The notes under the pieces are model-generated. The model saw nothing but the letters and a program-made list of their open reading frames with translations. It did not search any database and was not told the DNA's origin. This document shows, one piece after another, positions 3-11,937 of a stretch of 32,000 bases of DNA (positions are counted from its first letter, which is position 1; each line of letters starts with the position of its first letter). This stretch comes from an uncultured Pseudomonadota bacterium (GTDB lineage: Bacteria > Pseudomonadota > Alphaproteobacteria > Rhizobiales > Xanthobacteraceae). The translations under genes and the position numbers were made by a program. The stretch is from NCBI GenBank assembly GCA_963773305.1, contig CAVZAR010000002.1:20334-52333 (forward strand). Direction: 5' to 3'.

Positions 3-1520
3 GTGTCGCCCCTACGTTTCTATTGCCACACTCGCCACATTTATCTTGGCATGGCCTATCTGATCGGCTCCGGATTTCGGGCCGATCTTGGTCCGATTAC
101 CGTTGAGCTGCAAAAGGAATTGTACGGCCGTGTCCGACCCGAAGAGGCCGTGCGTCACAAGCACGACCTCGCCGCCAGTGATGCCTATGTGCGTCCGGGG
201 TTCGGATTGCGGCTTCTCTACGACGTCGTTTCCATTCTTGGCCGTGTTTGGCGGTACGTTCCGGGAGCCGCGTCGCTTCGCCGTCATGCGCTCGATGCCT
301 GCCTAACGCGCATTTTGTTCGAGCAACGTGCAACGGCTTATCAAGGGCTGTCGCCGGTTAACGGGGTGCTCAATACACTGGCGCTCTACGCCCGCGCCCC
401 GATGTCCGAGGACACGCTGGCCAGCTTCGATGGCGTAGAGACCTGGCGCTGGGACGATGAGACGCACGGTACGCGTTATGCCGGCGCCCGCTCGACGACC
501 TGGGACACGAGCTTTGCAATCCAGGCCTTGCTCGCAGGCGGCCCCGAGGCGGCGCTGCGGGAGGCGGGTGGGCTGCGGCGCGCCTACCGCAAGCTTGCCG
601 ACATGCAGATGATCTCCGAGCTCGACGAGGGGGCTGCTCAAGGGCGCGACCCAATCGTAGGCGGTTGGTGTTTCAGCAACGGGGAGCATCGGTGGCCGGT
701 GAGCGACTGTGCGGCTGAAGCCGTGATCGCTCTGCTTGATTGTCACGATGTCCCCGGATTGATTCCACAGAAAGAGCGACTGTCAAAGCCCCGGCTCGTC
801 GACGCCATGGGCTTTATTCTGAGCCGCCAGAACGCCGACGGCGGTTTTGGCACCTACGAACGACGTCGGGGCCAGCGCTTTCTCGAACATTTCAATCCAT
901 CCGAGATGTTCGGTCAATGCATGACCGAGCTTTCCTATCTGGAATGCACGGCTTCGTCGATACGCGCGCTCGGCCGTCTTAAGCGTAATGGCGACTCTGC
1001 TCAGCAGACAAATGCACAAGCCGCGATAGACCGAGGCGTGGCATTCATCTTGGGCCAGCAGAGGGCCGACGGGAGTTGGCCTGGTTTCTGGGGCATCAAC
1101 TTCATCTACGGCACATATTTCGCCCTTGCCGGACTGTTCGAAGCGGGATTGGCATCCGACCATCCGGCCTTCGCGAAAGCGCGTCGATGGCTGCAAAGCA
1201 TCCAGCATGCCGACGGAGGTTGGGGAGAGCACTTCTCTGGCTGCTTGACCGGCACATATTCGGATAATTCGTCAAGTTTGATTATCGGTACGGCCTGGGC
1301 ATGCCTGGGGCTCATGTACGCGCACGACGTTTCGTCGAATGCGCTTGATCGTGGCATCGATTACCTCCGAACGCGGCAGATGCGCGACGGCGGCTGGCCG
1401 CGAGAAGGCGTCAACGGCGTCTTCTTCGGCACGGCGATGCTCGAGTATGCGCTTTACAACAGCTACTTCCCGACAATGGCTTTGGCACTGTTTGGCAGTC
1501 GTCGTCATGGCCGGCATTGA
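3..1520 (+). CDS. Oxidosqualene cyclase (lanosterol/cycloartenol synthase type), 5'-truncated by window edge
   Basis: QW-type repeats are present (RQNADGGFG, QQRADGSWPGFWG, IQHADGGWGEH, RQMRDGGWPREG). The catalytic motif is VSDCAAE, the OSC-type VxDCTAE pattern rather than the DxDDTA of squalene-hopene cyclases. The first residues (..CHTRHIYLGMAYL..) align to the interior of cyclases, so the N-terminus lies upstream of the window. Confidence 0.9.
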   Translation: MSPLRFYCHTRHIYLGMAYLIGSGFRADLGPITVELQKELYGRVRPEEAVRHKHDLAASDAYVRPGFGLRLLYDVVSILGRVWRYVPGAASLRRHALDACLTRILFEQRATAYQGLSPVNGVLNTLALYARAPMSEDTLASFDGVETWRWDDETHGTRYAGARSTTWDTSFAIQALLAGGPEAALREAGGLRRAYRKLADMQMISELDEGAAQGRDPIVGGWCFSNGEHRWPVSDCAAEAVIALLDCHDVPGLIPQKERLSKPRLVDAMGFILSRQNADGGFGTYERRRGQRFLEHFNPSEMFGQCMTELSYLECTASSIRALGRLKRNGDSAQQTNAQAAIDRGVAFILGQQRADGSWPGFWGINFIYGTYFALAGLFEAGLASDHPAFAKARRWLQSIQHADGGWGEHFSGCLTGTYSDNSSSLIIGTAWACLGLMYAHDVSSNALDRGIDYLRTRQMRDGGWPREGVNGVFFGTAMLEYALYNSYFPTMALALFGSRRHGRH

Positions 1521-2841
1521 TTATGACGCGGTCATCGCGGGGGCCGGCGTGGCCGGAGTCGCCGCCGCCGCGGCGTTAAAGGAGCTCGGATGGTCGGTCC
1601 TCGTCATCGAACCTGGTCAACACGATGAGCGGCGCCTTGGCGGCGAATTGATTCATCCGACCGGGGTGATGGCGCTGCGTGAGCTCGGCCTGTTCTCGGA
1701 AGTCGCCTCCGAAGGAGCCGCCTCGATCGCGGGGTTCATTGCATTGCCCGGACGAGACGAAGGCTGGGCAAACATTGCACTTCCTTATTCGCAGCGAGGG
1801 GCGTATGGAACTGCGATCGCCCTCGCTCACGCACGCATCCGCGCAAGCCTGCAGAGGGCCGCTGCCCGGCTCGGCCATGCCGAAATGCTCAAGGGTGGCC
1901 GCGTGGTCGGAGTCGAAGCCGGCCGGATGCCGACGCGAGTTCGCATCCAGCACGCCGGCAGCATCTTAACGGTCAATTGCCGATTGGTCGTCGGCGCCGA
2001 CGGCGCCTCGAGTGCTGTGCGCGCTTTGGCCGGCATTTCGCACTGGCGTCGGCCGGTCTCCGCGGTCACAGGATATGTAATTAGCGACGCAAACCTGCCG
2101 GCCCGCGGATTCGGTCACGTCTTCATCGGCGGCAGCGCGCCATTGCTGGTATATGAAATTGGGGGCGGCCGCGCTCGCGTCCTTTTCGATCAGCCGATTT
2201 CGCAGTCGAACATTCCCCCCGAACAACATCGTAGCAAAGTCATCTCTGCCATTGCCTATCCCAGGCTACGCACCGAGATCGAGGCGGCGGTGGCGGAGCA
2301 GCGGGGTTTGCGATTTGTCAGCGCCGATGTGGTCGTTGAAACCGCCGCGCGCAATGGCGTCGTGCTGGTGGGCGACGCCGGAGGCAGCTGTCATCCGCTC
2401 ACCGCGACCGGAATGACCATCAGCGTGAACGATGCTCTGCGACTTCGCAACGCTTTGCGCGCGGCTGGCGACAACATCGGCGCGGCATTGTCGCGATATG
2501 GACGAGGCCGGAGACTTCCGCAGCGTACGCGTCTGCTGGTGGCATCCGCGCTGCACGATGCCTTCAGCGGGACAAGGCCTGAGCATCAGCTGATACGTGC
2601 GGGGCTCATCCGATATTGGCTGCGTGACGCGCGCGGCCGGCGGGCTTCGATGGACATCTTGGCTATGAGCGACGTTCGCCTGCTCTCCGCGTTGCGCGAA
2701 ATCCTCGTCGTCGTTCGGCATGGTATCGCGGCGAAGTCGGCTGGCTGGTCAATCGGCCGCGTCGGCGCCGGCTTGCGGCTGATGGCGGGTGTTACCGGCG
2801 TTGTCATGCGCCAGCTCAGTTTCGCGATGCGCGCCAAGTAG
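1507..2841 (+). CDS. Squalene monooxygenase (squalene epoxidase), FAD-dependent
   Basis: The ATG at 1507 gives MAGIDYDAVIAGAGVAGVAAAAAL, a GxGxxG dinucleotide fold. A GDAGGSCHPLTATGMT motif typical of the squalene epoxidase family is present. The track start at 1339 lies inside the cyclase gene and was rejected. The chosen start overlaps the cyclase stop by 14 nt. Confidence 0.85.
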   Translation: MAGIDYDAVIAGAGVAGVAAAAALKELGWSVLVIEPGQHDERRLGGELIHPTGVMALRELGLFSEVASEGAASIAGFIALPGRDEGWANIALPYSQRGAYGTAIALAHARIRASLQRAAARLGHAEMLKGGRVVGVEAGRMPTRVRIQHAGSILTVNCRLVVGADGASSAVRALAGISHWRRPVSAVTGYVISDANLPARGFGHVFIGGSAPLLVYEIGGGRARVLFDQPISQSNIPPEQHRSKVISAIAYPRLRTEIEAAVAEQRGLRFVSADVVVETAARNGVVLVGDAGGSCHPLTATGMTISVNDALRLRNALRAAGDNIGAALSRYGRGRRLPQRTRLLVASALHDAFSGTRPEHQLIRAGLIRYWLRDARGRRASMDILAMSDVRLLSALREILVVVRHGIAAKSAGWSIGRVGAGLRLMAGVTGVVMRQLSFAMRAK

Positions 2842-2852
2842 GGCACACCACC

Positions 2853-3881
2853 ATGATCCTGGTCACCGGCGCTGGCGGACATCTTGGTGCGAACCTGCTG
2901 CGAAGGCTGTTGGCCGACGGCCAGCAGGTGCGGGCCATGTTGCATACCGAGCGAGACCGGCCGAGCGTGGAAGGGCTTGTCGTCGATGTCTTCGTGGGCG
3001 ACCTGCGCGACCCGAGAGCGGCCGAAACGGCCGCGCGCGGCTGCCGGCAGATCTATCATTGCGCTGCCAAGGTATCGACGACCTATGCGAACCGCGACGA
3101 TATTTTCGACGCAAACGTGATCGCGACGCGCAACGTCCTGCGCGCCGCAAAAGCGAGCGGGGTCGAAAAGGTCGTAGTCACGGGCTCGTTCAGCGCTGTA
3201 GGCGTCCGCGACGACGGTCCGAGCGACGAAAATGACCCGTTCAACCCGCTGCAGCCTCACTTGCCGTACGGCTTCACCAAGGCTGCCGTCGAACACGAGT
3301 GTCTGAAGGCTTTCGCCGATGGGGTCCCCGTCGTGGTCGCGGTGTCGACCGCGATTGTCGGGCCCAACGATTTCAAGCCGTCGCGCATGGGGCAGGTGCT
3401 GATCCGCTTCGCTTCAGGGCGGCTGCACGCCTATGTGCCGGGCGGTTTCCCCTTCGTTGCCGCCGAGGACATTGTGCAAGGTCACTTGCTTGCCATGACC
3501 AAGGGTCGGCCTGGACAGAAATACATTTTCGCAACTTCGTTCATGAGTTTCGACGATCTGATGCAAATGTTTTCCCAGGTTACCGGGCGTCCGGCTCCGC
3601 GGCTGCGCATTCCGCCGGAGTTGATGGGTGCCCTCGCGCAGGTCGCCGGTGCGCTGCTGCCGTATCTCAAGCCGAACAGCGAGCAATTGTTGACGCCCGC
3701 GGCCATACGCATTCTACGCATGAATCGGAAGGCCGACATCAGCAAAGCACAGAGCGAGTTGGGTTTCCGGCCCACGAGCATCGAGCGCGCCATTCGCCAG
3801 GCCCATGACTGGTTCGTGGCCCGGGGAGTGATCGCCGCCCCGGTCGGTTCGGCGGCCCGGTTAGTGGAAGCGTCGCGATGA
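2853..3881 (+). CDS. NAD(P)-dependent epimerase/dehydratase (3beta-HSD / sterol C-4 decarboxylase-reductase type; SdmB-like)
   Basis: N-terminal Rossmann motif ILVTGAGGHLGANL and a YxxxK catalytic dyad (YGFTK). It sits between squalene epoxidase and CYP51, and its stop overlaps the CYP51 start by 4 nt. Confidence 0.7.
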   Translation: MILVTGAGGHLGANLLRRLLADGQQVRAMLHTERDRPSVEGLVVDVFVGDLRDPRAAETAARGCRQIYHCAAKVSTTYANRDDIFDANVIATRNVLRAAKASGVEKVVVTGSFSAVGVRDDGPSDENDPFNPLQPHLPYGFTKAAVEHECLKAFADGVPVVVAVSTAIVGPNDFKPSRMGQVLIRFASGRLHAYVPGGFPFVAAEDIVQGHLLAMTKGRPGQKYIFATSFMSFDDLMQMFSQVTGRPAPRLRIPPELMGALAQVAGALLPYLKPNSEQLLTPAAIRILRMNRKADISKAQSELGFRPTSIERAIRQAHDWFVARGVIAAPVGSAARLVEASR

Positions 3882-5227
3882 AAACGGTTCCGATGGTCGC
3901 CGGCGGCTTGCCTTATATCGGCCACGCGCTGGCCTTTAACCGGAATCCCGTAGAATTCTTGCAAAACGGCAAGGCGCTGCACGGCGACCTGTTTCGTTTC
4001 CGGCTGCTGGGGAACACCGTCTATGCACTGATGTCGAGTCGGGGCAACGAAGCGGTGTTTCGCGCCTCCGATGGCGTACTCGATTTCCGCGAAGCTTACC
4101 GCTTCACAATCCCGATTTTCGGCAAGGGTGTCGCCTATGATGTTGCGCCCGAGCTGATGGATCAGCAACTCGAGTTAATCCATCCCGGCCTGCGCGACGA
4201 GGCGATGCAGAATTATGCCGGGATCATGGCCGATGAAGTCGAGCGCTTCGCCACACGTCTTGGCGGCGGAGGCGAGATTGATCTCTTGACCGCGCTCAAT
4301 GAGCTCACGACCTTTATCGCCGGCCGTTGCCTCCTCGGCGAAGAGTTCAGAAGCCGTTTGTCGGCGGAATTCGCAGGGCTTTACCGCGATCTCGAGGGCG
4401 GCATCAATCTCGTCGCGTTTGTTGCGCCGTATTTCCCTACCGCCAAAAACCGACGCCGCGACCGGGCTCGGCGCGAGGTCGCCGCGATAATCGCCGATCT
4501 CATCGCAGGCCGTCGCCGCAGTGAAAAGGGGGAAGACGACTTCCTTTCCGTCCTGATGGCGGCGCGCTACGCCGACGGCACATCGTTGACGGACGATGCC
4601 ATCGCCGGCCTGCTGCTCACCCTGCTGTTTGCCGGCCAGCACACCAGCGCCGTCATGGCATCATGGTTGGGCGTGATGCTATCCAAGCATCGTGATCATG
4701 GAGCGGCCGTCGCCCGCGAAGCATCCGACATGCTCGGCAGTGAAGTTCGTCTGGCCAAGCTGAAGCGGATGCGGTTGATGGAATATTGCCTGAAAGAAGT
4801 GGAGCGGCTTTACCCGCCCCTCGTCATGCTGATGCGGAAGACGGTGCAGCCATTCTCGGTCGGCGACATCGTCATACCGCCGGGCAATCTGGTCATGGTA
4901 TCGCCCGGCGTGAGCCATCGCCAGCGCGAGGTCTTTCGAAATCCCGATGTTTTCGATCCAGCCCGTTTTGCGCCGCCGCGCGAAGAGGATCGCAAAACGC
5001 CTTATTCGCTGATCGGGTTCGGTGGAGGCAAGCATCGGTGCATCGGCATGGCGTTCGCCCATCAGCAGATCAAGGTCATCTGGGGCATTCTCCTGCAGCG
5101 TTTCGAATTCGAGCTGGTCGAGCCACAGGTCGAGCCCGACTATGCGACCTTTGTGGTGGGTCCGCGGCAGCCATGCCGCGTACGTTACCGCCGCCGGCAG
5201 TCCGAATCCTTGGCTGAGGCAAGCTGA
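3878..5227 (+). CDS. cyp51: Cytochrome P450 sterol 14-alpha-demethylase (CYP51)
   Basis: Heme-thiolate motif FGGGKHRCIGMAFA, CYP51-specific I-helix signature AGQHTS (LLFAGQHTSAV), and B'-helix signature YRFTIPIFGKGVAYDV. Confidence 0.9.
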   Translation: MKTVPMVAGGLPYIGHALAFNRNPVEFLQNGKALHGDLFRFRLLGNTVYALMSSRGNEAVFRASDGVLDFREAYRFTIPIFGKGVAYDVAPELMDQQLELIHPGLRDEAMQNYAGIMADEVERFATRLGGGGEIDLLTALNELTTFIAGRCLLGEEFRSRLSAEFAGLYRDLEGGINLVAFVAPYFPTAKNRRRDRARREVAAIIADLIAGRRRSEKGEDDFLSVLMAARYADGTSLTDDAIAGLLLTLLFAGQHTSAVMASWLGVMLSKHRDHGAAVAREASDMLGSEVRLAKLKRMRLMEYCLKEVERLYPPLVMLMRKTVQPFSVGDIVIPPGNLVMVSPGVSHRQREVFRNPDVFDPARFAPPREEDRKTPYSLIGFGGGKHRCIGMAFAHQQIKVIWGILLQRFEFELVEPQVEPDYATFVVGPRQPCRVRYRRRQSESLAEAS

Positions 5228-6840
5228 TGCGCACGCCCCGACCGATCGACTGGTTTCTCATTGGGCTCGTGGTGTTCTTCATTGCGTTCAACGCTACGGT
5301 TGATCGCTATTGGGTGACGCATGCGCACGAATTGCCGGCGCTGACCAAGACCGACCTTTTCGCGCGCATGTTCCAACATTATGCAGCCGCCGACCGAGGC
5401 TATTTCGACGAGGTCACCCAGGCCGAACTTGCGCTGGAAACGATCAACAGCACAATCACGCAAGCCTTCAACATCTGGCTGCTGATCGCGCTGTTCGCGC
5501 GCTGGCCGGTGCGCGTGCCGTTGCAGATCGCGATCGGCTCCTGGGTATCGTATTCGGTCTTGTTCAACTGGTGGTGCGCCCTGATCGCCGGTTTTCCCGG
5601 CATGGATCACAAGACGCCATGGAACTTCATCGTTTTGGTTGGAGCCAATCTGCCGTGGCTGGCTGGCCATCTCTACATCGCTTTCGCTGGCGCCCGCGAA
5701 TTCTTAAAGGTCGAGCCGCTCCCCGCCCCCGCCATGCGGAAGACCGCGCCGCTACCTCCCGATTTCTCCACGGCGCGCAATCTTCGCCAGAAAGCCCGCG
5801 CCGCGGGGCTTGACCCCGACCATTGGTACGCCTTCACGCGCGCCAAAGATCTCAAGCCGGGACAGGTGGTGGCTTCGAGCTTCCAAGGCGAAGCGATCGC
5901 GATCTATCGCGCTGCCGATGGCAAAGTTCGCGCCATGACCGACCGCTGCCTGCATCGCGGCATTCGGCTGTCGTTGGGCGAGGTGAGGGACTGCGGGCTC
6001 GTCTGCGCCTACCACGGTTGGGCCTATGGTGAAGATGGTAAGCTCGTCGATGTTGCGCACGAAAGGTTTGGCCGACCGCTGCCGGACGTCGGCGTCAGGG
6101 TATTCCCCGTGCGCGAGCGCTACGGCTTGATCTGGGTCTTTCCCGGCGATGCGGTGCGCGCCGAATCTGTGCCCATGCCCGAAATTCCGGAGATCGAGGG
6201 CCCGGATGCGTGGGCCTTCACGGCAATTGAATATACCTGGGATGCGCACCACTCGATCATCATCGATAACCTCAGTGATCTCACGCACGCCTATCTTCAC
6301 CGCCGCTACCGGCCGTTCCACGATCCCGTCCTGACGAAAAACGAGCCCAGCGATAACTCGGTGTACTGCATCTACGAATTGTCATTGCTAGACGGTCCGA
6401 TGAAGCGTCTGATCGACCGCGGCGCCAAGATGGACCTGATGGAGTTGTGCCTCGAGTACCCCTACCAGTGGGGCAATACCGGCGGTCGTGTAAAGCATTG
6501 GGTTTTTCTGACGCCGTTAAACGACCATCAAACGCGCGTCTACTTTATCTTCTATTTCAATCAGGTACAGGTGCCTTTCACGCCCTTTCATTTTCCGCAG
6601 CGGGTGATGGGCTGGGTGATCGGCATCTTCAACCCGATCTTCATCAAGCCGGTGACGAGTCAGGACGGCGATGCCGTCGCATGGGAACAGGAGGGCTACG
6701 ACACCGAGTTGGGCCGTCCCGTCATCGAACTCAATCCGGCGGTCGCCCAGTTCCAGCAGTTGATCGTGCGCAAGTGGCAGAACTATCTCGACCGCGTCTC
6801 CGGCGGGTCGGCTGCGAAGCATGAAAGCGCATTGACATGA
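5227..6840 (+). CDS. Fusion protein: N-terminal EBP/EXPERA-like 4-TM domain plus C-terminal Rieske [2Fe-2S] non-heme iron oxygenase (SdmA-like candidate sterol C-4 methyl oxidase)
   Basis: Rieske motif CLHRG...(17)...CAYHGW and a downstream DNLSDLTHAYLH metal-binding-like motif. The first ~165 aa are hydrophobic and paralogous to the next gene (shared ADRGYFDEV, RWP, YSV, NLPWL). The start overlaps the CYP51 stop (TGATG). Confidence 0.75.
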   Translation: MRTPRPIDWFLIGLVVFFIAFNATVDRYWVTHAHELPALTKTDLFARMFQHYAAADRGYFDEVTQAELALETINSTITQAFNIWLLIALFARWPVRVPLQIAIGSWVSYSVLFNWWCALIAGFPGMDHKTPWNFIVLVGANLPWLAGHLYIAFAGAREFLKVEPLPAPAMRKTAPLPPDFSTARNLRQKARAAGLDPDHWYAFTRAKDLKPGQVVASSFQGEAIAIYRAADGKVRAMTDRCLHRGIRLSLGEVRDCGLVCAYHGWAYGEDGKLVDVAHERFGRPLPDVGVRVFPVRERYGLIWVFPGDAVRAESVPMPEIPEIEGPDAWAFTAIEYTWDAHHSIIIDNLSDLTHAYLHRRYRPFHDPVLTKNEPSDNSVYCIYELSLLDGPMKRLIDRGAKMDLMELCLEYPYQWGNTGGRVKHWVFLTPLNDHQTRVYFIFYFNQVQVPFTPFHFPQRVMGWVIGIFNPIFIKPVTSQDGDAVAWEQEGYDTELGRPVIELNPAVAQFQQLIVRKWQNYLDRVSGGSAAKHESALT

Positions 6841-7334
6841 TGCGCACCGACAAAATAGCGCTCTCGTTAATCGCCTTCTTTGTCGTCGTGGCGCTGACGA
6901 TCGAACTGTATTGGCTTGTCCATGCCTTCGATTTGGCGAGCAGCAATAGTTGGCTCGCCCGCGGCTTCGCATTTTACGGCCGAGGCGACCGCGGCTACTT
7001 CGACGAGGTGAGCTGGTTCGAGGTCGGGCTCGAAAGCTTCAACATCATTTTCACGGTTCCGGTGTATCTCGTGTTGGGATATGCGATCGTCGCCGGGCGC
7101 GGGTTCCGCTGGCCCTTGCAGCTTTGTCTGGGTGCTTACACGACTTATTCCGTCGTGCTCTACCTGACGGCAAAGCATGTCACCGGCTATGTCGAGATGC
7201 CGAAACACGACCTCGCGTCGTTTCTAATTCTGTACGTTCCCAACCTTCCTTGGCTCTTTGGAAACGGGTATCTGACGCTCGATGCGGCAAGGGTCATCCT
7301 CCGCGCTGTGCGATTGCGCGAAAGGGGGGCGTGA
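6837..7334 (+). CDS. EBP-like (emopamil-binding-protein / sterol Delta8-Delta7 isomerase family) small membrane protein
   Basis: 165 aa with about 4 hydrophobic helices. YGRGDRGYFDEV resembles the EBP Y-x-K-G-D-S-R-Y segment. LESFN, RWPLQLCLGAYTTYSVVLYL and NLPWLFGNGYLTLDA align, from memory, to EBP METIT, ...LQLVVSVGQIYGDVLYF and NALWLVLPGVLVLDA. ATGA overlap with the upstream gene and TGATG overlap with the downstream gene. Confidence 0.65.
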   Translation: MMRTDKIALSLIAFFVVVALTIELYWLVHAFDLASSNSWLARGFAFYGRGDRGYFDEVSWFEVGLESFNIIFTVPVYLVLGYAIVAGRGFRWPLQLCLGAYTTYSVVLYLTAKHVTGYVEMPKHDLASFLILYVPNLPWLFGNGYLTLDAARVILRAVRLRERGA

Positions 7335-8401
7335 TGCAGTTCGCGCCGGTGACCTTGCAATCTGTCGGCCTTTCGGTACTCGGCATCGCGGGTTTTATTG
7401 TTGCCTTATTCGTATCGTCGCTCGTGGTGCCGGGTCCGGAATACGAGGTGACGGCCCGCGGCGGCGAGCGCATTCGCTACCGGCTCAATGGCTTGGCGCT
7501 GCTCGCAATAACGATCGCGATAGCGGCGCTCGCGCAATGGCGTGGACCCGGTCTGGCGCCGCTGGCGCGAGACATCTGGTCGCTTTTTATCGCGGCGAAC
7601 TTGTTGGCTTGGCCGGCGGCCTTCCTGCTGGTCGCCCGCGCGGGAGCGTGGCGGAAGAGCAGCGTCGCCGATTATTTCTACGGGGTCGAGAGGAACCCGC
7701 AGCTCTTCGGCATCGATTTGAAAATGTTCTCCTATCGTCCGTCGTTGATCGGGCTCGCGCTCGTCAACGCCTCTTTTGCGGCGTGGCAGTGGCAGGTCGC
7801 CGGGACGCTCAGCCTGGCGATGACCTGCTATCAGGTTTTCACGCTGCTCTATATCGTGAACTATTTCCAGTTCGAGAGCGGCATGCTTTTCACCTGGGAC
7901 ATCATCGAAGAAAAGTTCGGCTGGATGCTGGTTTGGGGCGACTATGTGCTGGTGCCCTTTTTCTACGCTTTGCCGGCCGCGTTCGTGCTTTCGCGGCCGG
8001 GTGATGTGACCTTCGCCGGAGCGGCGGCGCTCGCGGTGCTTTACCTGCTGGGTTTTTGGATTTTCCGCGGCGCCAATTCCCAGAAGCATCGCTTCAAGCG
8101 CCAGCCGGGCGCGCCGGTGTGGGGGCGTTCGCCCAGCGTCATCGGGGGCAAATTGCTCGCTTCGGGCTTTTGGGGCATCGGCCGCAAGCTCAACTACACC
8201 GGCGAATTCCTGATGTACCTGAGCTGGACGCTGCTGGCGGGCTTCCGGTCCGTTGTGCCGTATCTGCTGCTGCTGTGGCTGCTGCTGCTGCTTATGCAGC
8301 GCGCCAGCCGCGACGACCGCCGCTGCCGCGAAAAATATGGCCAGCTTTGGGATGAGTACTGCCGCAAGGCGCGGTTTCGAATGTTTCCGTACATCTATTG
8401 A
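7334..8401 (+). CDS. Sterol reductase, ERG4/ERG24 family (C-14 reductase most likely; DHCR7 or C-24(28) reductase not excluded)
   Basis: Family signatures LLASGFWGIGRKLNYTGEFLMYLSW and the C-terminal RDDRRCREKYGQLWDEYCRKARFRMFPYIY. The chosen start is the ATG at 7334 (MQFAPVTLQ...). The track's 6950 start would overlap the whole EBP-like gene. Confidence 0.85.
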   Translation: MQFAPVTLQSVGLSVLGIAGFIVALFVSSLVVPGPEYEVTARGGERIRYRLNGLALLAITIAIAALAQWRGPGLAPLARDIWSLFIAANLLAWPAAFLLVARAGAWRKSSVADYFYGVERNPQLFGIDLKMFSYRPSLIGLALVNASFAAWQWQVAGTLSLAMTCYQVFTLLYIVNYFQFESGMLFTWDIIEEKFGWMLVWGDYVLVPFFYALPAAFVLSRPGDVTFAGAAALAVLYLLGFWIFRGANSQKHRFKRQPGAPVWGRSPSVIGGKLLASGFWGIGRKLNYTGEFLMYLSWTLLAGFRSVVPYLLLLWLLLLLMQRASRDDRRCREKYGQLWDEYCRKARFRMFPYIY

Positions 8402-8404
8402 GGC

Positions 8405-9661
8405 GTGACGATGAACCGTGATCGAATTTACGACGTATGCATCGTCGGTGCCGGACCGGCCGGAGCCACGTGCGCCTTCTACCTCGCCAGCCATGGGCAC
8501 GATGTCGCGCTCCTGGAACGCAAGCGATTCCCGCGCGACAAGATTTGTGGCGACGCGATCTGTGCGCAGGCACAGCTGCATCTGAAACGCATGGGCGTCT
8601 TGCAGCAGATCATCGATAACGACGAGGGGCACTTTGCAGCTGTTGGCGGCATGGTCAGCCCGCGCGGCTACAGCTACATCGCCAGCTCTGCCGAACATCT
8701 TAAATCGAGCCAAGTTATCGCTATTAAACGTATGTTTCTTGACGTGCGTATCGCGTACGCAGCTAGGTCGGCCGGCGCAAATTTGGTAGAGGATGTCGCG
8801 GTTGCCGGGGCTGATTTCGACAAAACGAGCGGAACTTGGACCGTCACAACGGAAAATGGACAGCCGCCGATTCGCGCCCGCGTGCTTGTGGCAGCCGATG
8901 GCGCGCTCTCTCGTCTTGCGCGCCGCCTCGGCTATCTCGCATCGCCGCCGGATGCGGTATGCAGCCGCGCCTATGTGCGTGCCGACTCGACGAATTTCGA
9001 TGCCGACGGCGTGGTCTATTATCCAAAGCGCCTGCTCCCGGGATATTGCGCGATCTTTCGAGAAGCGCGCGGGGAGTTGAATTTCTGCGTCTATATTATC
9101 CCGGGCGGTAAGACCGGGATCGACGATCTGCGCACTGTACATCACGAGATCTTGCACAAGGATCCGCACGTCAGCCGTGCCATTGGCCCAAAAGCCGAAA
9201 TCGATCCGATGAAAGGTGCACCATTGCGGCTCGGCGGTATTGCGCGCAGCTACGGTGACCACTTTCTTATCGTCGGTGACGCCGCCGGACATATCGACCC
9301 GCTCACCGGCGAAGGTATTCAATTCGGTATGGACGCCGCGGAATATGCCGCCGACACGCTCCATGCTGCGCTGGCGGTCGGCGACCTCAGCGCAAGTGCT
9401 TTGAAAATCTACCAGGACCGCTGGATGAAAGCTTTCGGGCGTGACTTTTCCTGGTCATCGGCGATTGCGCGCTTTTATGCGCGGTTCCCCGGTTTTCTCG
9501 ACGCCGGTGCCTTGACCTTGCAGCGGCTGGGCCCACCTTTTCTGGCCGAATGGGCGCAGATCATGACCGGAGCTAGGCCAAAGACGGATTTCTTCAAGCC
9601 GGGAGTGTTCGCGCCGATCATGCGCGATTTTGTGTCCTTGCACTTGAGATCCGCGGCATGA
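8405..9661 (+). CDS. Geranylgeranyl-reductase-family FAD-dependent oxidoreductase
   Basis: YDVCIVGAGPAGATCAFYLASHGHDVALLERKRFPRDKICGDAI is the classic GGR-family N-terminus, and GDAAGHIDPLTGEGI is the second FAD motif. Start is GTG 8405 or ATG 8411. Confidence 0.7.
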   Translation: MTMNRDRIYDVCIVGAGPAGATCAFYLASHGHDVALLERKRFPRDKICGDAICAQAQLHLKRMGVLQQIIDNDEGHFAAVGGMVSPRGYSYIASSAEHLKSSQVIAIKRMFLDVRIAYAARSAGANLVEDVAVAGADFDKTSGTWTVTTENGQPPIRARVLVAADGALSRLARRLGYLASPPDAVCSRAYVRADSTNFDADGVVYYPKRLLPGYCAIFREARGELNFCVYIIPGGKTGIDDLRTVHHEILHKDPHVSRAIGPKAEIDPMKGAPLRLGGIARSYGDHFLIVGDAAGHIDPLTGEGIQFGMDAAEYAADTLHAALAVGDLSASALKIYQDRWMKAFGRDFSWSSAIARFYARFPGFLDAGALTLQRLGPPFLAEWAQIMTGARPKTDFFKPGVFAPIMRDFVSLHLRSAA

Positions 9662-10686
9662 ACGCGCAAGACAAACGCGGCAACCCGGGCATTGCGCAAT
9701 TGCTATCGTCGAATTCTGATCGCAACGGCGTCGAGGCGGCGGTTACCGACTATCTGGCGCATTACCACGGCACGCTCGCCGACCGCCAGTCGGCCTATGC
9801 GGACGTGGTGAACGGCTACTTCGACCTTGCGACCGACTTTTATGAGTATGGTTGGGGCCAATCGTTTCACTTCGCGCAAATAGCCGCGGGCGAATCGTTC
9901 GCGCAAGCAATCATCCGCCACGAGCGTCAGCTTTTTCATAGGCTCGGAGCGCAATCGAACATGACCGTGCTTGATGTCGGGTGCGGAGTAGGCGGCCCGA
10001 TGCGGAATCTCGCGCGCCTCGCGGGGTGCAAAGTTGTTGGCATCAACAACAATGCCTATCAGGTTTGGCGTGCAAAGCAGCTGAACGCCGAGGCCGGTAT
10101 TGACGAGCAATGTCGCGTCGTGCCCGGTGATTTCATGGCCATGCCGCTCTCGGACGGCACGATGGACGGAGCATACGCGATTGAGGCAACAGTGCACGCG
10201 CCGAACTGGGGTCGCGTGTTTCGCGAGGTCTGGCGGGTGCTCAGGCCCGGCGCCTCCTTTGCACTTTACGACTGGTGTCTGACCGATGTTTTCGATGTTG
10301 GAAATCCGCACCATCAGGAAATTAAGCGACGAATTGTTGCGGGCAACGGGTTGATCGACATAGGGACGTCTAGGCAATTGCTAGAGGCGCTGGGTGGGGC
10401 TGGATTCGATCTGCTTGAACATTATGACGCTGCTGCACGAGGCGGCGCGCCGTGGTTCGAGCCGCTGGCGCCGCGCAGCGTCTCGCTCGCGGGGTTCCGC
10501 AGCTCGGCCGTCGGTCGGAAAGTGACAAACTGGTCGCTGAAGGCGCTAGAGCTGTTGCGCATCGCGCCAAAGGGTACATTCAACGTGGCAGTCTTCCTCG
10601 ATAAAGCCGCGGTTGCGCTGGTAGAGGGAGGAAGGAGTGGGATTTTTACGCCGATGTATTTCGTGCATGCCCGTAAGCCCGGTTGA
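9658..10686 (+). CDS. Sterol 24-C-methyltransferase (SMT / ERG6 family)
   Basis: SMT region-I signature YEYGWGQSFHF, SAM motif VLDVGCGVGGPMRNL, and an SMT-type C-terminus GIFTPMYFVHARKP. ATGA overlap with the upstream gene. Confidence 0.9.
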   Translation: MNAQDKRGNPGIAQLLSSNSDRNGVEAAVTDYLAHYHGTLADRQSAYADVVNGYFDLATDFYEYGWGQSFHFAQIAAGESFAQAIIRHERQLFHRLGAQSNMTVLDVGCGVGGPMRNLARLAGCKVVGINNNAYQVWRAKQLNAEAGIDEQCRVVPGDFMAMPLSDGTMDGAYAIEATVHAPNWGRVFREVWRVLRPGASFALYDWCLTDVFDVGNPHHQEIKRRIVAGNGLIDIGTSRQLLEALGGAGFDLLEHYDAAARGGAPWFEPLAPRSVSLAGFRSSAVGRKVTNWSLKALELLRIAPKGTFNVAVFLDKAAVALVEGGRSGIFTPMYFVHARKPG

Positions 10687-10689
10687 GCC

Positions 10690-11937
10690 ATGCGGGTGGC
10701 GGTCGTTGGCGGAGGTGTTGCAGGTCTCACAACGGCATGGCTACTGGCGGAAACTTGCGATGTAACGCTTTTCGAACGCGGTCCGAGGCTGGGCGGCCAC
10801 GCCCACACTGTCGACATCATGGAAGATGGAAAGCAAATTGCGATCGATGTCGGCGCGGAATTTTTCGGCAATCGGCAGACTTATCCGCGATTTCATCGTC
10901 TGCTTGACCTTCTTTCGGTGCCGACCCGTTCCTTTTCGGCGACCGCGACGGTCTATTGTCCCGAGAACGGAGACAAATTGGTACTGCCGCCGTGGCGTGC
11001 CGGCGTGGTCGACTGGTCGGCGCTGAACCTTCGTGGGCTTTTGAATCTTTTGCGCTTCGCCGAATTTTCCGCAGCGGTCGGCTTCTCGAACGAAAACGCG
11101 CTTCGGCGAGAGACGATTAAGCAGTTTCTTGAACGGAAGTCGGCGCCAGATTTTAGAGACCGTTTACTGGTGCCGTTTCTGCTTGGACAGTTCGGAATGC
11201 CGCGCGACGCATTCAACGATTGTCTTGCCTACGACACGCTTAAATACTGCATGCAGGCTGGCGCCCTTCGACTAACTGCGCCGCGAATGACGGAAGTCGT
11301 GGGTGGGACGCGGAGTTATGTCGAGGCGCTGGAGGGCGAACTGCCGCGAGAGTGTGTGGTCCGGGACGCGTTGGTCACGCGCATTGAGTCGTCCCGTGAA
11401 GGACTCTTTCTCTGCCTTGACGACGGGGAACGGTATGCGGCGGATCACGTTGTGATAACCGCGGGCGCCAAGGACGCTGCTCGCTTATGCAAGACGAGTG
11501 GGCTCGCAAATGAAGCCCGCATTTTCGGCGGTGTCGATACGTTCGAAGCTGAATTGGTAGTTCACGGTGATGCTTCGGTCATGCCTGCCGAACCGAAAAG
11601 CTGGTCGGTCGCCAATTTTCGCGCGTCCGGCGATAGCGCAGCGTTGACGGTCTGGAAGCCTTGGAAAAGTAAGACCGTGTTCCGGAGTTGGACGACCGGA
11701 AAGGGGCATACTTACCGGAGCGAACACGGCAGATTCTGCTTTCGCCATCCAGTCGGCAATTCAAAATATTATTGGGTTCAGGATGCAATCCGCGTGCTGC
11801 AAGGCACAAAGAGTATCTGGTTTGCGGGAGCTTGCGTGCAAGACAATGACTGTCACGAAAGCGCTGTTATGTCGGCGCTCGCCGTGGCGCGCAGGCTTGC
11901 ACCGGGCAGCGGTCGAATTGTACAGCTCGGTCAGTAA
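10690..11937 (+). CDS. NAD(P)/FAD-dependent oxidoreductase (amine-oxidase/CrtI superfamily, COG2907-like), function unknown
   Basis: N-terminus MRVAVVGGGVAGLTTAWLLAETCDVTLFERGPRLGGHAHTV is a dinucleotide fold plus the GGH motif typical of this family. It is the last gene of the sterol operon and starts 3 nt after the SMT stop. Confidence 0.65.
   Translation: MRVAVVGGGVAGLTTAWLLAETCDVTLFERGPRLGGHAHTVDIMEDGKQIAIDVGAEFFGNRQTYPRFHRLLDLLSVPTRSFSATATVYCPENGDKLVLPPWRAGVVDWSALNLRGLLNLLRFAEFSAAVGFSNENALRRETIKQFLERKSAPDFRDRLLVPFLLGQFGMPRDAFNDCLAYDTLKYCMQAGALRLTAPRMTEVVGGTRSYVEALEGELPRECVVRDALVTRIESSREGLFLCLDDGERYAADHVVITAGAKDAARLCKTSGLANEARIFGGVDTFEAELVVHGDASVMPAEPKSWSVANFRASGDSAALTVWKPWKSKTVFRSWTTGKGHTYRSEHGRFCFRHPVGNSKYYWVQDAIRVLQGTKSIWFAGACVQDNDCHESAVMSALAVARRLAPGSGRIVQLGQ

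What the first reader, a model, noticed from the sequence alone, without database searches (positions are those of the whole stretch)
8405..9661. Geranylgeranyl-reductase-family flavoprotein embedded between sterol reductase and SMT: candidate non-canonical sterol side-chain reductase
**Seen directly:** the N-terminus and the GDAAGHIDPLTGEGI motif are typical GGR-family features. The gene starts 3 nt after the ERG4/ERG24 reductase stop and overlaps the SMT start (ATGA).

**Established knowledge:** GGR-family enzymes saturate isoprenoid C=C bonds. Eukaryotes reduce the sterol side chain with DHCR24 (FAD-linked oxidase family) or ERG4. No DHCR24-type gene is present in this operon.

**Inference:** the terminal isoprene unit of the sterol side chain, either Delta24(25) or the Delta24(28) left after methylation, is a chemically analogous substrate. 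This enzyme may therefore be a bacterial analog of DHCR24/ERG4.
Basis: inference. Interest (0 to 1): 0.7.

Follow-up and report, generated by a model that had tools for sequence, protein, structure and literature searches.

The report
GGR-type sterol side-chain reductase, variant clade
This gene encodes a flavoprotein of the geranylgeranyl-reductase family that sits inside a bacterial sterol-synthesis operon and most likely saturates the sterol side chain; that idea was shown for a distant relative in 2025, but this gene belongs to a separate, untested branch that is usually next to a sterol methyltransferase gene and also occurs in green algae and other eukaryotes.

Summary
Window 8405-9661 (+) is a real gene. 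Its likelier start is ATG 8411, and it shares an ATGA overlap with the SMT gene. It passes the NCBIfam geranylgeranyl-reductase superfamily model, and its predicted fold (pLDDT 94.8) best matches archaeal GGRs. It is the eighth gene of a tightly packed ten-gene sterol operon.

Lee & Welander 2025 showed that a GGR-family protein, Bsr from Sandaracinus amylolyticus, reduces sterol C-24.

The window protein is not a close Bsr relative. It is 55-57% identical to Calothrix BAZ57897, which that paper lists at only 24% identity to Bsr and did not assay. Its clade replaces the GGR substrate-positioning motif YxWxFP with Y[C/A]AxF[R/K]. The clade separates from canonical bacterial GGRs with bootstrap 97.

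Orthologs at 54% identity or more lie in sterol clusters in about seven phyla. A true SMT is the immediate neighbour in 12 loci. Some clusters lack CYP51 and ERG24, which leaves the side chain as the only plausible target.

The clade also contains Asgard archaeal members and membrane-anchored eukaryotic members ('CMFR1-like', widespread in green algae), plus fusions to a CPR-type reductase.

Which double bond is reduced remains untested.

The parts
8411..9661 (+). GGR-family flavoprotein, the finding. 416 aa from ATG 8411, or 418 aa from the alternative GTG 8405. Carries Rossmann VGAGPAG, Cys48 (FPRDKICGD), PGYCAIFRE in place of YxWxFP, and GDAAGHIDPLTGEGI.
9658..10686 (+). Sterol C-24 methyltransferase (SMT; Methyltransf_11 plus Sterol_MT_C). 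Its start overlaps the GGR stop codon by 4 nt (ATGA).
7337..8401 (+). ERG4/ERG24-family sterol reductase, 354 aa. Probably the Delta14 reductase: best PDB match is MaSR1 4quv, E 2.6e-63.
10690..11937 (+). Amine-oxidase/phytoene-desaturase-type flavoprotein, the last gene of the operon. Role unknown. Conserved only in the closest relatives (L001, L082, L083).
3..1520 (+). Oxidosqualene cyclase, with its 5' end cut by the window edge.
1507..2841 (+). Squalene epoxidase, 444 aa. Start inferred from L082 synteny; 14-nt overlap with the OSC gene.
2853..3881 (+). NAD-dependent epimerase/3beta-HSD-type reductase. SdmB-like C-4 demethylation partner, 59% identical to the Calothrix homolog.
3878..5227 (+). 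Cytochrome P450, presumed CYP51 (C-14 demethylase).
5227..6840 (+). Rieske oxygenase (SdmA-like) with an N-terminal EXPERA/EBP-like membrane domain.
6837..7334 (+). Small EXPERA/EBP-family protein, presumed Delta8-Delta7 isomerase.

Best explanation
The gene encodes an FAD-dependent enzyme that saturates a C=C bond in the sterol side chain. It is made from the same transcript as the other sterol enzymes and is translationally coupled to the SMT gene.

Proposed mechanism, by analogy with GGRs: reduced FAD transfers hydride to the side-chain double bond. The conserved Cys48 lies next to the flavin, and Tyr214/Phe218 of the altered PGYCAIFRE motif position the substrate.

My committed reading is that it works as a pair with the SMT. 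It reduces the olefin the SMT leaves, which is Delta24(28), Delta25(27) or 24-methyl-Delta24(25), and so gives a saturated 24-methyl side chain. It probably retains activity on the plain Delta24(25) bond, which would be its role in lineages without an SMT.

Electrons probably reach its FAD from a separate flavodoxin-, ferredoxin- or CPR-like partner rather than from a built-in NADPH site.

Shown: family membership, fold, operon structure, and conserved neighbourhood. Inferred: substrate, regiochemistry and electron donor.

Sub-probabilities: any sterol side-chain reductase, about 0.75. Within that, acting mainly on SMT products about 0.45, and acting mainly on Delta24(25) about 0.30.
For: Family and fold:
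- TIGR02032 score is above its cut-off.
- GGR structures are the best PDB fold matches.
- Cys48 and the GDAAG...TGEGI motif are invariant across 68 family members.

Operon structure: ten genes with gaps or overlaps of 14 nt or less, and no promoter or terminator signal above chance around the gene.

Conserved context:
- Every locus whose GGR is at least 54% identical carries sterol genes (OSC, SQE, SdmA/B-like, CYP51, ERG24), across about seven phyla.
- A bona fide SMT is the immediate neighbour in 12 loci, in three different arrangements: upstream, downstream and divergent. In Myxococcota loci L007, L012 and L023 no other window-type sterol gene was found beside the pair.
- Three further loci have an adjacent SMT-like methyltransferase.

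Chemistry by elimination: the minimal clusters Rieske-OSC-SQE-SDR-GGR-SMT lack CYP51 and ERG24 (L004, L008, L010, L020, L081). They leave only the nuclear Delta8 bond and the side chain as possible targets.

Precedent: a GGR-family enzyme, Bsr, reduces sterol C-24 in vitro (PMC12004948).

Electron supply: some clade members are natural fusions to Flavodoxin_1 + FAD_binding_1 + NAD_binding_1.

No competing enzyme: no DHCR24-type protein was found among the window ORFs scanned.
Against: - No member of this subfamily has been assayed.
- The assayed Bsr is only about 24% identical to the Calothrix ortholog (Table S2). I could not obtain the Bsr sequence for a direct comparison.
- The substrate-positioning motif differs from that of proven GGRs: W is replaced by A, and P by R.
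- Rokubacteria-type clusters (L009, L011, L085) keep the GGR with no SMT within 10 kb. Calothrix was reported, inconclusively, to make C27 sterols. Both argue that SMT products cannot be the only substrate.
- Clade members at 53% identity or less mostly show no sterol genes nearby (L023 and L093, which sit beside an SMT, are exceptions). These members come from Asgard archaea, Spirochaetota, Polyangiales and Coxiellaceae.
- A second flavoprotein in the operon (10690-11937) could in principle be the side-chain enzyme.
Confidence: 0.75

Rival explanations
1. It is a strict Delta24(25) reductase, a functional equivalent of Bsr/DHCR24. It would compete with the SMT for the same Delta24 substrate and create a branch between C27 and 24-alkyl sterols, as SSR2 does against SMT1 in Solanaceae.
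For: The Delta24(25) terminal prenyl unit is the closest chemical match to GGR substrates. Bsr acts on desmosterol and zymosterol. Rokubacteria-type clusters have the GGR but no SMT nearby. The Calothrix adjacent methyltransferase lacks Sterol_MT_C, and Calothrix was reported, inconclusively, to make cholesterol.
Against: Competing enzymes have no obvious reason to stay adjacent. Yet SMT-GGR adjacency survives three gene arrangements in several phyla and also occurs as an isolated pair. Translational coupling (ATGA) suggests the two are made in matched amounts for consecutive steps.
Confidence: 0.3
2. It reduces a nuclear double bond (Delta7, Delta8, Delta5 or Delta14) rather than the side chain.
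For: The operon has no DHCR7 or ERG3 homolog, so the final ring chemistry is not accounted for.
Against: An ERG24-type Delta14 reductase is already present. The GGR persists in clusters without CYP51 and ERG24. GGR enzymes act on acyclic prenyl olefins. The gene is linked to the SMT, which is a side-chain enzyme.
Confidence: 0.06
3. It acts before cyclisation. It would saturate the terminal double bond of squalene or 2,3-oxidosqualene, so that the cyclase makes 24,25-dihydro sterols directly.
For: GGRs prefer linear isoprenoids. In Acetobacteraceae-type clusters the GGR follows the squalene epoxidase gene directly.
Against: The SMT needs a Delta24 sterol, so saturation before cyclisation would make the conserved SMT partner useless. 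Bsr accepts cyclised sterols.
Confidence: 0.05
4. It is not a reductase here. It would be a flavin monooxygenase, epoxidase or desaturase acting on the sterol (for example C-25 hydroxylation or Delta22 formation), since the fold is shared with flavin hydroxylases and halogenases.
For: Halogenases and hydroxylases are near-equal fold matches. The GGR-defining Trp and Pro of YxWxFP are lost. 25-hydroxycholesterol was reported in Calothrix extracts.
Against: The GGR superfamily model is passed, while halogenase and hydroxylase family models score far below their cut-offs. The GGR catalytic Cys in FPRDKxCGD is invariant. The halogenase Lys and WxWxIP features were not observed.
Confidence: 0.07
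5. It serves a non-sterol isoprenoid, such as a quinone tail (as MenJ does) or a polyprenol, and sits in the sterol operon by accident.
For: JGI annotates many homologs as 'menaquinone-9 beta-reductase'. More distant clade members lie outside sterol clusters.
Against: The MenJ model scores 120 bits against a cut-off of 700. About 25 of 25 close orthologs are beside sterol genes in seven phyla. None of the 70 canonical-type metagenome loci has sterol genes nearby.
Confidence: 0.04

Closest known systems
Bsr, bacterial C-24 sterol reductase of Sandaracinus amylolyticus (AKF09143; Lee & Welander 2025, PMC12004948)
   Same: It is a GGR-superfamily flavoprotein encoded in a bacterial sterol gene cluster with no DHCR24. 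The predicted role is the same: saturation of the sterol side chain. The catalytic Cys is conserved.
   Different: The window protein's Calothrix ortholog is only 24% identical to Bsr (E 9e-17). Bsr-clade proteins are about 365-385 aa, against 412-445 aa here. Bsr homologs are reported to keep YxWxFP, whereas this clade has Y[C/A]AxF[R/K]. Bsr is described from cholesterol producers, whereas this clade is usually next to an SMT. Bsr is reported absent from eukaryotes, whereas this clade has many eukaryotic members.
Calothrix sp. NIES-4105 BAZ57897 (= P0094), in the 21-kb Calothrix sterol cluster
   Same: It is a true ortholog: 55-57% identical over the full length, with the same motifs (PGYCSIFREA) and the same position inside a sterol cluster. 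It is listed as a Bsr homolog in Table S2 of the 2025 paper.
   Different: It has never been assayed. Its adjacent methyltransferase lacks the Sterol_MT_C domain. The Calothrix cluster also carries a FAD_binding_4/ALO protein that the window lacks.
Archaeal geranylgeranyl reductases (T. acidophilum Ta0516, 3oz2; S. acidocaldarius GGR, 3atq)
   Same: These are the best structural matches (TM 0.70-0.75). They share the FAD Rossmann fold, the catalytic Cys, and the GDAAG..P.TG.GI motif.
   Different: Identity is 17-21%. The substrates are linear C20 prenyl lipids. The canonical YxWxFP motif is present in them and altered here.
MenJ (menaquinone reductase, Mycobacteriales)
   Same: It is a bacterial GGR-family enzyme that saturates one isoprene unit of a larger lipid. 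Among the named equivalog models in NCBIfam, its model gives the best hit.
   Different: The score is 120 bits against a cut-off of 700. The genomic context here is sterol synthesis, not menaquinone synthesis.
DHCR24/DWF1/SSR and ERG4 (eukaryotic side-chain reductases)
   Same: They are functional analogs: they saturate Delta24(25) or Delta24(28) of sterols.
   Different: They are unrelated folds: an FAD-linked oxidase (PF01565) and a polytopic membrane ERG4/ERG24 reductase, respectively.
Eukaryotic 'conditioned medium factor receptor 1 (CMFR1)-like' proteins (Chlorophyta, Amoebozoa, Vitrella, some invertebrates)
   Same: They are 44-50% identical to the window protein. They have the same altered motif (PGY[ACS]A[IL]F[RK]H[PA]), the same Cys, and the same GDAAG motif.
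   Different: They carry an N-terminal transmembrane anchor of about 50 aa, and some are fused to a CPR-like diflavin reductase. They are named as a receptor by annotation transfer. No enzymatic role has been reported in the literature I could search.

Membership tests
Geranylgeranyl reductase superfamily (NCBIfam TIGR02032) | Whole-protein HMM score above the curated cut-off | tested here: met
   171.5 bits against a cut-off of 158.8, covering residues 9-318
Geranylgeranyl reductase superfamily (NCBIfam TIGR02032) | FAD-binding Rossmann fold, GxGxxG motif, and a GGR-like three-dimensional fold | tested here: met
   VGAGPAG at residues 14-20. AF2 pLDDT 94.8. Top Foldseek PDB hit is 3oz2 (E 4e-24); SaGGR TM 0.73-0.75
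Geranylgeranyl reductase superfamily (NCBIfam TIGR02032) | Catalytic cysteine (Cys47 of S. acidocaldarius GGR) in the R..K.CG motif | tested here: met
   Cys48 in FPRDKICGDA is invariant in the 68-sequence alignment
Geranylgeranyl reductase superfamily (NCBIfam TIGR02032) | Substrate-positioning motif YxWxFP | tested here: not met
   It aligns to Y214-C-A-I-F218-R219: Tyr and Phe are kept, Trp becomes Ala, and Pro becomes Arg. All clade members share this change. All canonical relatives at 32% identity or less keep PGYxWIFP
Bsr (bacterial C-24 sterol reductase, Lee & Welander 2025) | GGR-family gene co-localised with sterol biosynthesis genes in a sterol-producing bacterium | tested here: met
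   It is the eighth gene of a ten-gene sterol operon, and orthologs lie in sterol clusters in about 25 loci
Bsr (bacterial C-24 sterol reductase, Lee & Welander 2025) | Close sequence relationship to the assayed S. amylolyticus enzyme (core clade 41-62% identical) | tested here: inconclusive
   I could not retrieve the Bsr sequence. Indirect evidence: the window protein is 55-57% identical to BAZ57897, which Table S2 gives as 24% identical to Bsr. This points to a different subfamily.
Bsr (bacterial C-24 sterol reductase, Lee & Welander 2025) | Demonstrated reduction of the sterol Delta24 bond | not testable with these tools
   This needs an enzyme assay. No member of the window's subfamily has been assayed.
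MenJ menaquinone reductase (NF045655) | Equivalog HMM score above the cut-off | tested here: not met
   119.9 bits against a cut-off of 700
BchP/ChlP geranylgeranyl-(bacterio)chlorophyll reductase (TIGR02023) | Subfamily HMM score above the cut-off | tested here: not met
   94.2 bits against a cut-off of 343.3
DHCR24 / ERG4 sterol side-chain reductases | FAD_binding_4 (PF01565) domain or ERG4_ERG24 (PF01222) domain | tested here: not met
   Pfam hits are FAD_binding_3/DAO-type only. The protein can be an analog of these enzymes, not a homolog.

The most novel reading that the evidence does not exclude
The window protein represents a third, previously unrecognised lineage of sterol side-chain reductase. 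This lineage, the 'CMFR1-like' GGR subfamily with motif Y[C/A]AxF[R/K], would be shared by bacteria, Asgard archaea and many eukaryotes.

In this reading, its eukaryotic members are the still-unassigned reductase that finishes the Delta25(27)-olefin (24-beta-alkyl) pathway. Those members are ER-anchored proteins in green algae and amoebozoans, and CPR-fused proteins in thraustochytrids. The Dictyostelium-derived 'conditioned medium factor receptor' annotation would then be a misnomer.

This would contradict the published statement that GGR-type sterol reductases are confined to bacteria. It would also add a new gene to the debate on bacterial versus eukaryotic origins of sterol tailoring.
Probability: 0.3. 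Interest if true: 0.8.

Novelty: new variant of a known kind. Interest (0 to 1): 0.45.

Why it matters
Side-chain alkylated steranes are read as eukaryote and sponge biomarkers, and bacterial SMTs already complicate that reading. A dedicated bacterial reductase conserved next to the SMT would show that several uncultured phyla carry a complete module for making saturated 24-alkyl sterols.

The gene also gives a second, sequence-distinct GGR lineage for sterol reduction. That sharpens bioinformatic searches, because Bsr-based BLAST at strict cut-offs misses this lineage.

Its eukaryotic and Asgard relatives offer a directly testable candidate for an unassigned step of algal and amoebal sterol synthesis. 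They also provide a new marker for tracing how sterol tailoring moved between the domains of life.

Tried and rejected
(1) Retrieving the S. amylolyticus Bsr sequence for a direct alignment.
- I derived the protein termini from the published cloning primers: MAEKIDAN... and ...RLMAQM. None of the 271 fetched proteins has these termini.
- I therefore rely on the published 24% figure together with an exact accession match.

(2) Looking for a second, Bsr-type GGR in the fetched loci. The HMM search found only squalene epoxidases as secondary hits.

(3) Looking for sterol genes around canonical (YxWxFP) GGRs from metagenomes, loci L094-L163. None were found.

(4) Checking whether '8,14-Bsr' (PMC13277303) is related. 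It belongs to the NTF2 family and is unrelated.

(5) Contexts of more distant clade members.
- Heimdallarchaeota contexts (L016, L021) showed a Dus protein, a P-type ATPase and unknowns, which is uninformative.
- Polyangiales and Coxiellaceae contexts showed a conserved upstream Sacchrp_dh_NADP gene and no sterol genes.

(6) The Foldseek afdb50 library was unavailable.

(7) The promoter/terminator scan around the gene found nothing above chance.

(8) Literature searches linking CMFR1 to sterols, or naming an algal Delta25(27)-reductase gene, found nothing in the held library.
Full report
**Observation**

The ORF at 8405-9661 (+) exists. The upstream ERG4/ERG24 gene ends with TGA at 8399-8401. 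However, a GAGG Shine-Dalgarno at 8400-8403 is correctly spaced (7 nt) for ATG 8411, and the 81%-identical syntenic homolog is called at 416 aa (L082). The true start is therefore probably 8411. The ATGA overlap with the SMT gene (ATG 9658-9660, TGA 9659-9661) is real.

The window carries a ten-gene + strand operon with gaps or overlaps of 14 nt or less. The genes, in order, are:
- OSC, cut at the window edge
- squalene epoxidase
- an SdmB-like SDR
- a P450 (CYP51-like)
- an EXPERA-Rieske protein (SdmA-like)
- a small EBP
- an ERG4/ERG24 reductase
- the GGR-family gene
- the SMT
- an amine-oxidase-type flavoprotein

No FAD_binding_4 (DHCR24-type) domain was found in these proteins or in ten further large ORFs of the window. 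The ERG4/ERG24 protein best matches the Delta14-sterol reductase MaSR1 (4quv, E 2.6e-63).

**What the protein is**

- It passes the NCBIfam GGR superfamily model (TIGR02032, 171.5 bits against 158.8).
- It fails the named equivalog or subfamily models by wide margins: MenJ 120 against 700, BchP/ChlP 94 against 343, and archaeal DGGGPL reductases.
- An AlphaFold model built on 68 homologs is confident (pLDDT 94.8, pTM 0.93).
- The best PDB match is the T. acidophilum GGR 3oz2. The S. acidocaldarius GGR scores TM 0.73-0.75. Flavin halogenases and hydroxylases follow closely.
- The Rossmann motif, the GGR catalytic cysteine (Cys48 in FPRDKICGD) and GDAAGHIDPLTGEGI are invariant in the family.

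**Prior knowledge**

Lee & Welander (J Bacteriol 2025, PMC12004948) found a GGR-family gene in the S. amylolyticus sterol cluster and named it Bsr.

Their Table S2 lists Bsr homologs. The core clade is 41-62% identical to Bsr and comprises myxobacteria, Lichenifustis and Nonomuraea. A second group is 32-36% identical. Calothrix sp. NIES-4105 BAZ57897 is listed at only 24% identity (E 9e-17).

An exact-sequence look-up shows that my hit P0094 is BAZ57897 (and also BAZ11752). P0094 is 55-57% identical to the window protein over its full length. The window protein is therefore an ortholog of the Calothrix protein. That paper lists the Calothrix protein as a homolog but never assayed it, and it is only distantly related to the assayed enzyme. 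I could not obtain the Bsr sequence itself, so the 24% figure is taken from the paper.

**A distinct subfamily**

In the alignment to 3oz2, the GGR substrate-positioning motif YxWxFP (GYIWVFP) aligns with GYCALFR in this family.

Across 156 aligned sequences, every relative at about 32% identity or less keeps PGYxWIFP. This includes archaeal GGRs and canonical bacterial, MenJ-like proteins. Nearly every relative from about 38% identity upward has PGY[C/A/S]A[I/L]F[R/K][E/H] instead, with Trp replaced by Ala and Pro by Arg or Lys. The 2025 paper states that Bsr homologs retain YxWxFP.

A neighbour-joining tree (415 columns, 100 bootstraps) separates the altered-motif clade from canonical bacterial GGRs with 97% support. 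It places the window protein with alphaproteobacterial sterol-cluster sequences at 99%. Deeper branching inside the clade is poorly supported, and NJ is a crude method.

Proteins of this clade are 412-445 aa. From the coordinates in Table S2, Bsr-clade proteins are about 365-385 aa.

**Genomic context**

I searched 163 fetched loci with the window's ten proteins and examined gene calls for the closest homologs. All loci with a GGR at least 54% identical carry sterol-pathway genes beside it. They come from these groups:
- Alphaproteobacteria: Acetobacteraceae, Acidisphaera, Aliidongia, Rhodopila
- Rokubacteria/Methylomirabilia
- Gemmataceae
- Acidobacteriota
- an Alcaligenaceae MAG
- Calothrix
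- Myxococcota

L082 (JGI metagenome 3300051094) is fully syntenic with the window.

The position of the SMT relative to the GGR breaks down as follows:
- A bona fide SMT is the immediate neighbour in 12 loci: the window, L001, L007, L012, L013, L023, L081-L084, L086 and L093. The arrangement is co-directional upstream, co-directional downstream or divergent.
- In Myxococcota loci L007, L012 and L023, no other window-type sterol gene was found in the flank beside the SMT-GGR pair.
- Four Acetobacteraceae-type clusters hold the SMT a few kb away.
- Three loci (L005, L006 Calothrix, L091) have an adjacent 292-aa class-I methyltransferase that lacks Sterol_MT_C.
- Three Rokubacteria-type clusters (L009, L011, L085) have no SMT within 10 kb.

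Clusters L004, L008, L010, L020 and L081 contain Rieske, OSC, SQE, SDR, SMT and GGR but no CYP51 or ERG24. In those organisms the only double bonds available are the nuclear Delta8 bond and the side-chain olefin. None of the 70 canonical-type GGR loci from metagenomes has a sterol gene nearby.

**Mechanism**

The best-supported reading is an FAD-dependent saturation of the sterol side chain. The recurrent, rearrangement-proof adjacency to the SMT and the ATGA coupling suggest consecutive steps. Bacterial SMTs yield Delta24(28), Delta25(27) and 24-methyl-Delta24(25) products (PMC10070321), any of which could be the substrate.

The SMT-less Rokubacteria clusters and the (inconclusive) C27 sterols reported for Calothrix (PMC10202945) indicate that plain Delta24(25) is probably also accepted. 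I cannot resolve this computationally.

Several clade members are natural fusions of the GGR domain to Flavodoxin_1 + FAD_binding_1 + NAD_binding_1. One such fusion is from the thraustochytrid Mucochytrium quahogii. This Rosetta-stone pattern suggests that the stand-alone enzymes receive electrons from a flavodoxin- or CPR-like partner.

**Beyond the finding**

More distant clade members (45-53% identity) occur without nearby sterol genes in several groups:
- at least eight Heimdallarchaeota, Promethearchaeati or unclassified archaeal MAGs
- Spirochaetota
- Polyangiales and a Coxiellaceae MAG, where a Sacchrp_dh_NADP gene precedes the GGR

The exhaustive representative search and a follow-up search found eukaryotic members 44-53% identical to the window protein:
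- Many Chlorophyta: Chlamydomonas, Volvox, Chlorella, Coccomyxa, Trebouxia, Tetraselmis, Bryopsis and Haematococcus. These proteins carry an N-terminal transmembrane anchor of about 50 aa.
- Other protists: the amoebozoan Clastostelium, Vitrella, a gregarine and a cercozoan.
- A few invertebrates.

Several of these proteins carry the name 'conditioned medium factor receptor 1'. No land plant appeared among the 120 best hits to the Tetraselmis protein.

Green algae and Acanthamoeba use the Delta25(27)-olefin route to 24-beta-alkyl sterols (PMC6278499 and PMC6495176). I found no paper that assigns a gene to the required reductase or links CMFR1 to sterols. This is a lead, not a result.

**Verdict**

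- The specific gene is a member of a sequence-distinct, unassayed GGR subfamily whose Calothrix ortholog has been listed, without a test, as a Bsr homolog. I class it as a new variant of a known kind.
- Confidence that it is a sterol side-chain reductase is about 0.75. The exact double bond is open.

Noticed in passing
P0124-P0126, P0137, P0284-P0345, P0388-P0393 (relatives of window 8411-9661): Eukaryotic proteins 44-53% identical to the window GGR are widespread in Chlorophyta. They also occur in Amoebozoa, Vitrella, a gregarine, a cercozoan and some invertebrates. They carry an N-terminal TM anchor of about 50 aa. Several are annotated 'conditioned medium factor receptor 1'. No land plant appeared in the top 120 hits. 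The 2025 Bsr paper states that GGR-type sterol reductases are absent from eukaryotes.
   Followed up: partly
P0132, P0133, P0138/P0278 (Mucochytrium quahogii), P0147: These proteins, about 1050 aa long, fuse the same GGR domain to a C-terminal flavodoxin + FAD + NADPH (CPR/sulfite-reductase-alpha-like) module. This implies a self-sufficient, NADPH-driven version of the enzyme.
   Followed up: partly
L014, L015, L016, L018, L021, L022, L026, L027, L038 (match at about 10001-11250 in the long loci): Heimdallarchaeota, Promethearchaeati and unclassified archaeal MAGs encode clade members 45-53% identical to the window protein (motif FPRRKICGDA / PGYxAxFKEA). In the NJ tree they nest beside Spirochaetota sequences. 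No sterol genes lie within the flanks. The same MAG groups also have canonical GGRs (L064, L080).
   Followed up: partly
window 10690-11937 (+): An amine-oxidase/phytoene-desaturase-type flavoprotein is the last gene of the operon, 3 nt after the SMT gene. It is conserved only in the nearest relatives (L001, L082, L083). Its best PDB relative is LkcE (E 6e-20), and it has weak HpnE/PPO similarity. It could be a sterol desaturase or a second reductase.
   Followed up: partly
window 5227-6840 (+) and 6837-7334 (+): The SdmA-like Rieske oxygenase carries an N-terminal EXPERA/EBP-like membrane domain (residues 44-152). It is followed by a separate 165-aa EBP-family gene, so the operon has two EBP-type modules.
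   Followed up: no
L004, L008, L010, L020, L081: Alphaproteobacterial 'minimal' sterol clusters contain Rieske, SDR, SMT, OSC, SQE and GGR but lack CYP51 and ERG24. This predicts C-14-methylated, C-4-demethylated, side-chain-modified sterols.
   Followed up: no
L005 11328-12209, L006 11311-12189, L091 about 792 onward: In Calothrix, an Alcaligenaceae MAG and one metagenome contig, the gene after the GGR is a 292-aa class-I methyltransferase. It is 31-40% identical to the SMT core but lacks the Sterol_MT_C domain. It may be a different kind of sterol methyltransferase.
   Followed up: partly
L006 16383-17849 (+): The Calothrix sterol cluster also encodes a FAD_binding_4 + ALO-domain oxidoreductase. 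This is a second candidate for a sterol redox step, and the window has no equivalent.
   Followed up: no
L028 1177-2520 and L032 8763-10004: In a Coxiellaceae MAG and in Polyangiales MAGs, the clade member (motif PGYAAIFRHP, the same as in green algae) is preceded, with overlap, by a saccharopine-dehydrogenase-like NADP-binding protein. This is a conserved pair of unknown function.
   Followed up: no
L039 6116-7410: In a Rhodopila MAG, the GGR next to OSC and SQE is split into two overlapping ORFs. This is either a frameshift or pseudogene, or an assembly error.
   Followed up: no
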